This document shows positions 46,466-49,501 of a stretch of 64,000 nucleotides of DNA, one piece after another. Under the pieces are notes generated by a model, which did not search any database, was not told the origin of the DNA, and saw nothing but the letters and a program-made list of their open reading frames with translations. How positions within the stretch are numbered: position 1 is the first letter of the stretch; each line of letters opens with the position of its first letter. The DNA comes from the human T2T-CHM13v2.0 reference genome, Homo sapiens, in the NCBI RefSeq assembly GCF_009914755.1, contig NC_060945.1; one strand, given 5' to 3'. Both the position numbers and the translations under genes were made by a program.

Positions 46466-47959
46466 TAAATAAATCCTTTAAATGGTAATATAGTGGAATA
46501 ATGACATTTTATAGGCAAAATGACATAAAGAAAATATTGATATATCTGATATCAACATTTCCATTTTCACAGATTTACTTATATATGGGATTATGGTTAA
46601 TTGATGGTAAAATGTTATTTGCAAATTATAAGAATTTTTTAACCTATTGTTAATAGGTAATAAGGCCTGATGCTACAACAGGCAAAAGATTTAAAAGAGT
46701 ATAAAGTGAAAAGCTTGATGATAACTGTGGCTCGCTTTATCATCAAACTTTTGTTACCTCATCAACGATTCAGTGAACATATGCTATTTGCTAGCATTGT
46801 CAAAGTACATGAAGAAAATGAATCTCCTAGTATATCAAAACATTACAGCGAATGTTATAGACAAAATTGGAGACTTACGCTACATGATTGTACTTGCTTC
46901 AGAAGAGAATATGAATAAATGAAAAGAAAATTTGTTAGTTTTTTTTTTCAAGAGATTCTCCAGAGAGGAAGAAAAAACAGTTTGCACCATAAAAAATAAG
47001 CAAGAATAATTTTAGCTGAAGACTAGAACAGGATAACTAGATGAGCTAACCCAAAAGAGGGGCTACTCAAAATTTAGTTAGTTGTGAATTTCATCCAAAC
47101 ATTTATTTGTCAACTATGATTTACTAGTTGTTGTATTAGACATTGAAGATACAAAAGTCAGTAATTACAGAGGAGCCTACTGCATAGTGAGATAGTAACA
47201 CAAACACATGATTGTAATACAATTGTAATATTATTTAAGCATAAAGCCCAGTGCATCCTGATAACTTTTAGTAGTTGCTGTTAAATACTAAATGCCAGAC
47301 ATATTAAGTATTTACTTTTAAGATCTCCTGTGTCTGTGGCCTCCTATTCTTATTACTCCTCTGGTGGTAGTTTTATTACTAGCTCAGGGGCCTAGCTGAT
47401 CCATATAGCAGTGCATGAATTTCTGTAAAGCTATTTGTATAAAGAATCTCAAAGCCCATCATCTGGGTTTAGGGAATTGAGCCATTACAAGATTGCAAGA
47501 TCACCTAGTTTTGTTCCCCCGGATATTTCTTTAATAACTCTTTACTATGCTCACTTTAGGAGTAGAGACGCCAAAGTTGCAACTGAATCTGTCATGCTCT
47601 GCTTTACTTTGAGGTAGAGAAAAGGTCTATTGACTCTTAATAGGTGCAAAAATTCTGTATATATGTTGGAGAATTTTGAGCAGACATCTCACATCTAAGT
47701 GAAAGAGTTGAAACTGAAGTAACAGGAGAATTTTGCAAAAACACTTAATTCATCTGCATAAGTCACTCTGCTAGAATATAAAAGGGACACCTGTACACAT
47801 AGGACACATGAGACCTGATAAGAAGACAAAAATCTGTGACTTTCAGTTATGTAATTCAGGGTAACGATATGAAGCTTGTTTAATAAAATGATCTGGAGAC
47901 TAGAATGAAATGCAACTGAGATAAAGATCCCAACTTAACTTTTAAAACTTACACTCTTT

Positions 47960-48614
47960 TTGTTTGTTTGTTTGTTTGTTTTTATTATACTTTAAGTTTT
48001 AGGGTACATGTGCACAACATGCAGGTTAGTTACATGTGTATACATGTGCCATGCTGGTGTGCTGCACCCATTAACTCGTCATTTAACATTAGGTACTAAA
48101 GGTCATTATTTTTGAGTCTGTCTTTATCTCTAAGCGCTGACTATTCACAGATATTTAAAGTTCTGAAAGCCTTTTTCCCTCTTTCTCTCTCTCTCTCACT
48201 CTTGAATGTGTCCTTTTGAGCTTTGACTATAAATGTAAAAAGAAAGAATAGCAGCTTTTATGTATTTAAATACAGTCCAAGGTAGTCAGTCATCTCCTGG
48301 TTCTAATTTCATACGATGATCTGAGCTTAGATCACTCTTCAATCTTTAGATAAGTTTTTAAAAACAGAGGCAAAATTAACACATTTTAGATAAACCTATG
48401 TACAGTTTTAATTTTTGAGAAGAGGAGGGAAAGGAACTTAACTACTTAGTGCATCTGTGGTAAGACAAGTTGTCATCCTTGTTGGTATCCATTACAAAAA
48501 AGTCAATTGCAAATGGTTTTGTATTTCTTAGTTGTACAAAAATCTGGGTCTGTGTTTCTACATGTTTTTCAACTAATAAAAAGCTTGTAAAACTAAAAAA
48601 ATAAAAATAAAAAT
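47960..48614 (+). mobile_element. Composite L1-mediated insertion: inverted L1PA 3' end (47960-48095) plus polyadenylated non-L1 segment (48096-48614)
   Basis: Perfect 16-bp TSD AAAACTTACACTCTTT at 47944 and 48615; AATAAA at 48575; A-rich tail from 48595. Confidence 0.9.
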
Positions 48615-49501
48615 AAAACTTACACTCTTTGAAGGAAAGTTTTCCCTCCTATAAAAAGAGCTTATGAGGTAAATTTAGAGGACTTTAGGAATAAATACTA
48701 TAACATCTGTTGTTTAATATATATGACAGTATTTGTTTAATATATATCACAGGTTTACTTCGAATGCTTCTGGATAAATTAGGAAAAAAAATGGCTATGA
48801 TGGACAGTGGAAGGTTTGAATTTAGTTACATTTCAGTGATGGAATTATCAATCCAAAAGACATGTAAAATCATGTAACGTACAAATTAAGTAAACTGGGT
48901 GGGGGAGAAAGCAAAAAATGAAAAACTATAGCAAAAAATGGAAGAGTAAAATATTTTCAGAAAACACATACTAGATAAAAAGAAGACAATGGAGAGAGAA
49001 CCTATACAACGGAGGTGCGACATAATTAATATCCTGGACAGAAGGAAACGGCTGTGTCAGGGTCACCTGCATACTGGGACAGGCAGAGTGAAGAAAACAG
49101 TGGAAGCTTTTTCTTCTTTCATTTGTTAAAGTTAGCTGTTTAGCTTTATAAAGATATCCCTAGGAATATGACATTGTAACTTTTCTCTGGCTTTGTGCTT
49201 TCTTAGATACTAAATTCTGCCTTGTGGTGACGAAAATTAATGGCATAAATGCATTCATAAAGGAAGTTATTAAAGAGTTATGTGACTGAATTACAAGTAA
49301 GGATTATTATACTTGCAAGTTCATAATGTAAATTTTTAAAAAAAAAACATAATACAGAAAGGGCGTGGCTTCTAAAAACACAGTCCCGAGAAGAGTTGTA
49401 CAATTCATAAGGATATCTAAGCTGTGTATAAGTAGTTTGTGTAAGTGCTTGACTTTCCATAATTTTGATCCTGTAGTAATTTTTTTAAAAAATTAAAGGC
49501 C

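What the first reader, a model, noticed from the sequence alone, without database searches (positions are those of the whole stretch)
47944..48630. TSD-bounded insertion with an inverted L1 end and ~500 bp of polyadenylated foreign DNA (3' transduction plus twin priming)
Seen: a perfect 16-bp direct repeat AAAACTTACACTCTTT (47944, 48615) preceded by TTTT, giving TTTT/AAAA. Inside lie an antisense L1PA terminus with its own (AAAC)n-type tail (47960-48095), then ~500 bp with no repeat similarity I recognise, AATAAA at 48575, and an A-rich tail 14 nt later. Established: TTTT/AA is the L1 endonuclease site; L1 read-through mobilises 3' flanks; twin priming inverts the 5' part of an insert. Inference: one event in which a source L1 transcript ran into its flank, and the T-ending second strand primed on the internal L1 A-tail. 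The cargo would then be a copy of another locus and would tag the parent L1. A repeat masker would label only the ~135-bp L1 piece.
Basis: partly seen in the sequence, partly recalled or inferred. Interest (0 to 1): 0.8.

Follow-up and report, generated by a model that had tools for sequence, protein, structure and literature searches.

The report
Two-part L1-driven insertion, inverted L1 end
An old, neutral jumping-gene insertion on human chromosome 21 joins a flipped tail-end of an L1 element to a polyadenylated copy of a unique chromosome 3 sequence in a single event, a known kind of retrotransposition by-product whose parent L1 cannot be found.

Summary
A perfect 16-17-bp target-site duplication at a TTTT/AAAA site brackets 655 bp. 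The insert holds an inverted 136-bp LINE-1 3' end with its own (TTTG)n tail against the left repeat. It also holds about 500 bp of single-copy DNA with AATAAA and an A-rich tail against the right repeat.

The cargo has one paralogue in the genome, chr3:22,016,070-22,016,575 (+), 95.8% identical. That copy has no tail and no duplication, so it is the donor. The two parts overlap by a 6-nt TAGGTA microhomology.

One L1 endonuclease event therefore primed reverse transcription from both nicks, and the two cDNAs were joined.

No L1PA lies next to the donor, and none within 200 kb upstream is a credible parent. Two readings remain:
- One read-through L1 RNA from a parent L1 that never fixed, with twin priming.
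- Two separate RNAs, "dual priming", about 0.3.

A spliced transcript, template switching and sequential insertions are unlikely. Divergence dates the event to about 17-22 Myr. No gene is affected. Both mechanisms are already in print, so this is an ordinary but tidy new member of a known kind.

The parts
47940..47947 (-). L1 endonuclease-type target: the bottom strand reads 5'-TTTT/AAAA-3' (palindromic TTTTAAAA). The nick leaves a T4 3' end that primes on a poly(A).
   Evidence: Read directly. The TSD starts at 47944.
47944..47959 (+). Left target-site duplication, AAAACTTACACTCTTT.
   Evidence: Perfect 16-nt repeat (17 with the T at 47943). 0 of 100 shuffles gave 2 copies.
47960..47980 (-). 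Inverted L1 tail, (CAAA)5-type on the minus strand, abutting the left TSD.
   Evidence: These are the 21 nt downstream of the L1's own AATAAA (minus strand, 47981-47986).
47981..48095 (-). Inverted LINE-1 (L1PA-type) 3' UTR terminus, 115 nt.
   Evidence: 40 of 40 scored genome matches were 93-100% identical; 4 of 9 fetched copies share a body that differs from it at 2 positions. ORF2p match upstream of copy L007.
48090..48095 (.). TAGGTA, a 6-nt microhomology shared by the L1 end and the chr3 donor (the internal junction).
   Evidence: The chance of an overlap of 6 nt or more is 1.3e-3.
48096..48595 (+). 5'-truncated retrocopy of a unique chr3 sequence (G000:C3:22016076-22016575, + strand).
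   Evidence: the only paralogue in the genome; 481 of 502 aligned positions identical, 2 indels, K2P 0.043.
48575..48580 (+). AATAAA poly(A) signal, also present at the donor.
48596..48614 (+). A-rich tail, (A5T)n-like, absent from the chr3 donor.
   Evidence: homology ends 15-19 nt after the hexamer.
48615..48630 (+). Right target-site duplication. The top-strand nick fell after ...CTCTTT (47959 in the unduplicated site), giving a T-ending primer.

Best explanation
Shown: one L1 endonuclease / target-primed reverse-transcription event, about 17-22 Myr ago, put a bipartite cDNA into a TTTT/AAAA site on chr21. The right part (48090/96-48614) is a 5'-truncated, polyadenylated copy of an RNA that ended at the AATAAA site at chr3:22,016,55x-57x. 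The left part (47960-48095) is an inverted L1PA 3' end. Each part has its A-tail against one copy of the 16-bp duplication.

Inferred: the bottom-strand T4 end primed on the terminal poly(A). After the top strand was cut 16 nt away, its ...CTCTTT end primed on the A-rich tail of the L1 3' end. The two growing cDNAs annealed through TAGGTA/TACCTA and were sealed.

My commitment on the templates (inference from base rates, not shown): both cDNAs were copied from ONE read-through transcript of an active L1PA. That L1 sat a short distance upstream of the chr3 donor, possibly at the TT/AAAA site 15 nt before the junction. It was polymorphic and never fixed, so no trace is left in CHM13. The insertion has no evident function.
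For: Single event:
- A perfect 16-17-nt TSD brackets both parts, and no other flanking repeat fits either part alone.
- The target is TTTT/AAAA.
- Both tails face outwards.
- The internal microhomology is 6 nt; P(6 nt or more by chance) is 1.3e-3.
- The ages of the two parts agree. The cargo has K2P 0.043 to its donor, about 2% per lineage. The L1 piece has 2 differences in about 112 nt from the body shared by 4 of the 9 best copies fetched; those 9 were picked as best matches, so this is biased low.

Direction chr3 to chr21: only the chr21 copy has a tail and a TSD.

For one RNA:
- The perfect endonuclease site sits at the terminal-poly(A) end, as expected for cis-preferred priming of an L1-encoded RNA.
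- A TTT-ending second primer fits an internal A-rich L1 tail.
- In passages I read of PMC13009371, about 25% of L1 insertions carry a transduction and 30% of partnered transductions carry a 5' inversion.
- By contrast, L1 chimeras with an antisense unique RNA are rare in hg38: 2 of 17 mRNA/lncRNA chimeras (PMC13174262, section 13).
- TTAAAA lies 15 nt upstream of the donor junction, but there are 7 such sites in 3496 nt, so this is weak.
Against: - The direct prediction failed. The donor is not preceded by an L1PA.
- In the 200 kb upstream, the sense L1PA-type pieces are 116-, 170- and 437-bp fragments plus one copy of at least 1.6 kb that is 187 kb away. These are 86-93% identical to the fragment.
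- The nearest piece (8.4 kb upstream, 92%) is 5'-truncated to about 435 bp. It shares its differences from the fragment with other older copies and has a plain A tail.
- No sibling insertion carries the same cargo; there are only 2 copies genome-wide.
- A lost parent is an unobserved entity. My preference rests on base rates taken from tumour and long-read studies and on my own population-genetic estimate that roughly half of parents are never fixed.
- The (CAAA)n tail could equally have evolved from a pure poly(A), as the cargo's (A5T)n tail evidently did.
Confidence: 0.5

Rival explanations
1. Dual priming with two separate RNAs. One staggered break was primed at both ends on the poly(A) tails of two different molecules: an ordinary polyadenylated chr3 transcript (mobilised in trans) and an L1 mRNA. 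The two cDNAs were joined at the TAGGTA microhomology. No parent L1 ever sat at the donor.
For: - It takes the genome at face value. The donor has no adjacent L1PA, and no credible parent lies within 200 kb upstream.
- Both tails abut a TSD copy, and both nick-side 3' ends are T-rich (TTTT and CTCTTT).
- The internal microhomology is what Meyer et al. 2010 said dual priming should show (PMC2837659, 'Dual priming' passages).
- Law & Burns 2026 attribute antisense RNA/L1 chimeras to twin priming on a second RNA (PMC13174262, passages).
- They report 452 TSD-bounded Alu/L1 chimeras, of which 11.5-16.8% are antisense (section 12).
Against: - It needs a rare trans-mobilised unique RNA and a second template in the same event.
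- Only 2 antisense mRNA/lncRNA-L1 chimeras were catalogued in hg38.
- No evidence was available that the chr3 donor is an independent transcription unit.
- The 245 bp upstream of the donor has no other copy, so no second retrocopy of such a transcript exists.
Confidence: 0.3
2. Template switch. Reverse transcription of the chr3 RNA jumped, at TAGGTA, onto another RNA that contained an antisense L1 3' end. It then stopped inside that RNA's U-rich stretch, which joined the T-ending target overhang.
For: The 6-nt overlap would serve a template jump equally well. Nuclear RNAs rich in antisense L1 are common (my knowledge).
Against: It requires the jump to land in the last 115 nt of an antisense L1, and the cDNA to end exactly within its 21-24-nt tail. 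The tail-against-TSD arrangement then has to be a coincidence. Classical template-switch chimeras have both parts in one orientation with a single tail (PMC13174262, Figure 7 legend).
Confidence: 0.06
3. Plain retrocopy of a spliced transcript. An upstream exon lying in an antisense L1 (donor ...TTAG|GTA) was spliced to a chr3 terminal exon starting at GTACTAAAGG (acceptor ...tatAG|), and the copy was 5'-truncated in the L1 tail.
For: The junction can be read as AG|GT on the L1 side and AG| on the chr3 side.
Against: - Only 4 of the 20 nt before the chr3 AG are pyrimidines, so there is no polypyrimidine tract.
- The four antisense L1PA-type 3' ends in the 200 kb upstream are 80-93% identical to the fragment. 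The two best (91% and 93%) have plain T or (TTTTA)n tails; the tails of the other two were not read.
- Truncation exactly at the tail would be a coincidence.
Confidence: 0.04
4. Two independent insertions, one placed exactly at the boundary between the other and its TSD, with no duplication of its own.
For: None specific. The ...CTCTTT/ boundary is T-rich.
Against: No second pair of flanking repeats exists for either part. The hit would have to be at single-base precision. The 6-nt overlap is left unexplained.
Confidence: 0.03

Closest known systems
L1 3' transduction with 5' inversion by twin priming (Ostertag & Kazazian 2001, recalled and seen only as a cited reference; frequencies from passages of PMC13009371)
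   Same: TSD, TTTT/AA site and terminal poly(A) after a downstream AATAAA. An inverted 5' segment is joined to a direct 3' segment through microhomology. The inverted segment is an L1 3' end and the direct segment is unique flanking DNA.
   Different: The donor locus carries no L1PA in this genome, so the defining link between parent L1 and cargo is missing. The internal priming site would be the L1's own tail, which leaves the tail against the TSD.
Dual priming (Meyer, Srikanta, Conlin, Batzer 2010, Mob DNA 1:7, PMC2837659; abstract and 'dual priming' passages read)
   Same: Two cDNAs primed at the two nicks on poly(A) tails, tails outwards, within one TSD pair. Microhomology at the internal junction, as that paper expected.
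   Different: Their 39 loci had only a 5' poly(T) with no identifiable second template, so the mechanism stayed speculative. Here both halves can be identified and map to different genomic sources. A single chimeric RNA still cannot be excluded.
Antisense RNA/LINE-1 chimeric insertions (Law & Burns 2026, Cell Genomics, PMC13174262; sections 12 and 13, passages, Table S5 part 1 and chr21 rows of Table S4 read)
   Same: An L1 3' end and a non-L1 RNA copy in opposite orientation, arriving together inside one TSD with an endonuclease motif. That paper attributes this to twin priming on a second RNA.
   Different: This locus is not in their tables as far as I could see. Table S5 has no 'chr21' string, and the first 4 chr21 rows of Table S4 are Alu chimeras elsewhere; the remaining chr21 rows of Table S4 and those of files 2-3 were not read. 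Here the partner is the 3' end, with poly(A), of a unique and possibly unannotated transcript.
Template-switch chimeric retrogenes (U6/L1 type; recalled, and Figure 7 legend of PMC13174262)
   Same: Two unrelated RNA copies inside one TSD pair.
   Different: Those chimeras are co-oriented and share one poly(A). Here the orientations are opposite and there are two tails.

Membership tests
L1 endonuclease-dependent TPRT insertion | Target-site duplication of about 7-20 bp flanking the whole insert | tested here: met
   Perfect 16-nt (17-nt) repeat at 47944 and 48615. 0 of 100 shuffles gave 2 copies.
L1 endonuclease-dependent TPRT insertion | Nick at a TTTT/AA-like site | tested here: met
   Bottom strand 5'-TTTT/AAAA-3' at 47940-47947. 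The motif itself is recalled knowledge and also appears in PMC13174262.
L1 endonuclease-dependent TPRT insertion | 3' poly(A) tail not encoded at the source | tested here: met
   The A-rich stretch 48596-48614 is absent from the chr3 donor.
L1 3' transduction | The cargo's source locus lies directly 3' of a (full-length) source L1 in the same orientation | tested here: not met
   No L1PA is adjacent. In the 200 kb upstream there are only truncated sense pieces and one distant copy, at 86-93% identity. An unfixed parent cannot be excluded.
L1 3' transduction | The cargo ends at a downstream poly(A) signal of the source locus | tested here: met
   AATAAA is present in both copies. Homology ends 15-19 nt after it.
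Twin priming (single RNA) | An inverted 5' segment and a direct 3' segment joined with microhomology | tested here: met
   Inverted L1 end, direct cargo, and a 6-nt TAGGTA overlap.
Twin priming (single RNA) | Both segments map to neighbouring parts of one template | tested here: inconclusive
   They are not neighbours in CHM13. They would be if the parent L1 was lost.
Dual priming (two RNAs) | Each segment carries its own A-tail against a TSD copy | tested here: met
   The (TTTG)n tail lies at 47960 next to the left TSD. The A-rich tail at 48596-48614 lies next to the right TSD.
Dual priming (two RNAs) | The two segments derive from separate RNA molecules | not testable with these tools
   They have different genomic origins in the reference, but a chimeric read-through RNA from an unfixed L1 would look the same.
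Template-switch chimeric retrogene | Parts co-oriented, with a single 3' poly(A) | tested here: not met
   Opposite orientations and two tails.
Processed pseudogene (spliced mRNA retrocopy) | Loss of introns relative to the parent gene | tested here: not met
   The cargo is colinear with one continuous 506-bp chr3 stretch. The AG|GT reading of the junction lacks a polypyrimidine tract.

The most novel reading that the evidence does not exclude
The locus is a sequence-resolved case of 'dual priming'. Two unrelated polyadenylated RNAs, an L1 mRNA and an ordinary chr3 transcript, were each reverse-transcribed from one of the two staggered nicks of a single L1 endonuclease break, and the cDNAs were joined by a 6-nt microhomology. 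Meyer et al. 2010 postulated this mechanism but could not separate it from twin priming, because the second template in their loci was never identifiable.
Probability: 0.3. Interest if true: 0.45.

Novelty: new member of a known kind. Interest (0 to 1): 0.3.

Why it matters
It matters little for the genome. The insert is about 20 Myr old and lies in a gene-free stretch, with no gene annotated in the window. Its value is as a clean textbook specimen: both TSD copies are perfect, both tails are present, the internal microhomology is visible and the donor is unique. If the donor proves to be an L1-independent transcript, the locus would document second-strand priming on a different RNA. That bears on how L1 builds chimeric insertions and rearrangement bridges. 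If a parent L1 is found in another primate, it becomes a dated parent-offspring pair for an extinct L1PA lineage. It also shows that a repeat masker will label only about 135 bp of a 655-bp retrotransposition product.

Tried and rejected
- Parent L1 on chr3. I fetched the 200 kb upstream of the donor and searched it with the 136-nt fragment (8 hits at 80-93%) and with 1.6 kb of an L1 3' end (17 hits). None is a credible parent; I read the tails of the four best hits and none was an AAAC-type tail.
- Spliced-exon reading. Rejected as unlikely on the purine-rich sequence before the chr3 AG and the lack of a matching antisense L1 upstream.
- Surrogate 'empty site' from paralogues of the chr21 flanks. 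Both flanks are single-copy (one search had failed on the machine side), so this was not possible.
- A second retrocopy of a longer chr3 transcript. The 245 bp upstream of the donor matches only itself.
- Pfam on three ORFs upstream of L1 copy L007 gave 0 families. The PDB sequence search then identified ORF2p.
- The bacterial promoter/terminator scan is irrelevant to a human locus and was ignored.
- Mononucleotide shuffles of 47500-49100 for the longest exact repeat are uninformative, because the observed maximum (19) comes from the (TTTG)n microsatellite.
Ostertag & Kazazian 2001 is not held.
- Phrase searches for coordinates in the supplements of PMC13174262 do not work across the colon, so absence from those tables rests on the 'chr21' string counts and the rows I read.
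Full report
**1. What is in the sequence**

The window reads as follows:
- ...AACTTAAC TTTT, then the left repeat AAAACTTACACTCTTT (47944-47959).
- TTG(TTTG)4TTTTT and the reverse complement of an L1 3' end, together 47960-48095.
- About 500 bp of non-repetitive DNA with AATAAA at 48575-48580.
- AAGCTTGTAAAACTA, then AAAAAATAAAAATAAAAAT (48596-48614).
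- The right repeat AAAACTTACACTCTTT (48615-48630), then GAAGG...

The repeat finder reports the flanking repeat as 17 nt at 100% identity, and no other repeat that could flank either half alone. The 16-mer occurs twice in 64 kb even with one mismatch allowed, and 0 of 100 dinucleotide shuffles reached two copies.

**2. The left part is a LINE-1 3' end**

A genome search with 47960-48095 found 1043 candidates. All 40 that were scored were 93-100% identical. The nine best loci fetched all end in A-rich tails. Four of these nine share an identical body that differs from the insert at two positions; these copies were chosen as best matches, so the figure is biased low.

An ORF upstream of one such copy (L007) matches human LINE-1 ORF2p residues 877-1105 at E 1e-116 in the PDB. 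Pfam found nothing in that region. The subfamily name 'L1PA' is my recollection of the 3' UTR type and was not tested against a library.

**3. The right part is a retrocopy of a unique chr3 sequence**

48096-48594 has exactly two matches in the 3.1-Gb assembly: itself and G000:C3:22016076-22016571 (+) at 95%.

In the alignment:
- Homology starts six bases earlier, at TAGGTA. The chr3 donor reads ...AAAATA TAGGTA CTAAAGG and the window reads ...AACAT TAGGTA CTAAAGG.
- Homology ends 15-19 nt after the shared AATAAA.
- The chr3 copy runs on into unrelated sequence, with no A-tail and no duplication. It is therefore the donor, and the chr21 copy is the polyadenylated product.

Over 502 aligned positions, 481 are identical, with 16 transitions, 5 transversions and 2 indels. 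K2P is 0.043. With 1.0-1.25e-9 substitutions per site per year (my own figure) this gives about 17-22 Myr. The L1 piece differs at about 2% from its nearest family type, which is the same order as the roughly 2% per lineage of the cargo. The two halves are compatible with arriving together.

**4. The junction**

Other L1 copies continue ...TAGGTA TATCTCC, and the donor is preceded by ...AAATA. The overlap is therefore exactly 6 nt. The chance of an overlap of 6 nt or more at a random junction is 1.3e-3. This points to annealing of two cDNA 3' ends (TAGGTA with TACCTA) or to an annealing-guided template jump.

The same letters can also be read as a splice junction (AG|GT). However, only 4 of the 20 nt before the chr3 AG are pyrimidines, so a functional acceptor is unlikely.

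**5.

It does not. The nearest L1 sequence is an ancient element, only 67-75% identical to an L1PA 3' region, that ends about 240 bp upstream.

I fetched the 200 kb upstream and searched it with the L1 fragment and with 1.6 kb of an L1 3' end. Eight L1PA-type 3' termini are present, at 80-93% identity to the fragment, against 97-98% for the best copies genome-wide.
- Four are in sense orientation. Three are fragments of 116, 170 and 437 bp, and one is a copy of at least 1.6 kb that lies 187 kb away and is 88% identical to the fragment.
- The nearest (8.4 kb upstream, 92%) is truncated. It has a plain A tail and differs from the fragment at positions where other older copies in the region agree with it, so it belongs to another subfamily.
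- The two best antisense copies (93% and 91%) have plain T or (TTTTA)n tails. I did not read the tails of the other four hits.

So CHM13 holds no parent L1 for a read-through transcript, and no antisense-L1 exon for a spliced transcript. No sibling copy of the cargo exists. The 245 bp upstream of the donor is also single-copy.

**6. Mechanism**

The core is well supported. Each half has its A-tail against one copy of the duplication. The bottom strand offers a perfect 5'-TTTT/AAAA-3' nick, and the top strand ends in ...CTCTTT at the other edge of the duplication. Reverse transcription therefore started at both nicks, and the two cDNAs met in the middle.

What cannot be read from this genome is whether the two tails belonged to one RNA or to two.

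*(a) One RNA.* An L1 read-through transcript has an internal, genome-encoded L1 tail and a terminal poly(A) after the chr3 AATAAA. The T-ending second primer anneals to the internal tail. It needs a parent L1 upstream of the donor that never reached fixation.
- In colorectal-cancer and germline long-read data, about a quarter of L1 insertions carry transductions, and 30% of partnered transductions have 5' inversions (passages of PMC13009371).
- My own population-genetic estimate is that roughly half of parent elements are never fixed.
- A TT/AAAA site lies 15 nt upstream of the donor junction. That would give the small junction deletion typical of twin priming, but such sites occur 7 times in 3.5 kb, so this is weak.

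*(b) Two RNAs, 'dual priming'.* Meyer et al. 2010 proposed that a second mRNA can anneal by its poly(A) to the second nick. They could not distinguish this from twin priming in their 39 loci and expected microhomology at the internal junction (PMC2837659). Law & Burns 2026 attribute antisense RNA/L1 chimeras to twin priming on another RNA. They list 452 TSD-bounded Alu/L1 chimeras (11.5-16.8% antisense) but only 2 antisense cases among 17 mRNA/lncRNA chimeras (PMC13174262). This reading takes the missing L1 at face value, but it needs a rare trans event.

Weighing the failed prediction (a likelihood ratio of about 0.5 against a) against these base rates, I put (a) at about 0.5 and (b) at about 0.3. 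Template switching onto an RNA containing antisense L1, a spliced transcript, and two precise sequential insertions share the rest. Each of these needs the tail-against-TSD arrangement to be a coincidence.

**7. Comparison with what is known, and novelty**

Every element of the structure belongs to described L1 biology. The locus does not appear in the Law & Burns tables as far as I could check:
- Table S5 contains no 'chr21' string.
- The first four chr21 rows of Table S4 are Alu chimeras at other places.
- The remaining chr21 rows of Table S4 and those of files 2-3 were not read.
- Their phrase search cannot handle coordinates.

I found no paper that describes this particular insertion, but I ran only three literature searches, all aimed at mechanisms and none at the locus. 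I therefore rate it a new member of a known kind. It is an unusually clean specimen of modest interest. It would be of more interest if the donor proves to be an L1-independent transcript.

**8. Limits**

No primate genomes, no chr3 annotation and no RNA data were available. The empty-site test, the dating by presence or absence, and the question of whether the donor is a known transcript's 3' end therefore remain open. Substitution rates, the endonuclease consensus and subfamily names are recalled knowledge.

Noticed in passing
L002:175-697 (G000:C3:22014750-22015272): A roughly 520-bp element that ends in a pure 30-nt poly(A) (L002:668-697) sits inside the ancient sense-oriented L1 upstream of the chr3 donor. 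It splits the L1 matches at chr3:22014093-22014744 and 22015292-22015575. Its family was not identified.
   Followed up: no
L002:1475-1480 (G000:C3:22016050-22016055): A TTAAAA (L1 endonuclease-type) site lies 15 nt upstream of the point where homology to the chr21 copy begins. It is a possible landing site for a lost parent L1, but there are 7 such sites in 3496 nt.
   Followed up: partly
G000:C3:21993364-21995000 (in L014/L015): An antisense L1 of at least 1.6 kb with a (TTTTA)n tail lies 22.6 kb upstream of the donor. Several 3'-terminal positions differ from both the insert's L1 and the older neighbouring copies, so it is a different L1PA subfamily and unrelated to the insert.
   Followed up: partly
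window 48596-48614 and 47960-47980: The two tails of one insertion have taken on different periodic patterns, (A5T)n and (CAAA)n. The first tail is absent from the donor, so it was added after transcription and was presumably pure poly(A) when inserted. Its present pattern shows how fast tails become microsatellite-like.
   Followed up: no
window 48699-48744: An imperfect 23-nt tandem duplication (78% identity) lies about 70 bp downstream of the insertion. It is probably trivial.
   Followed up: no
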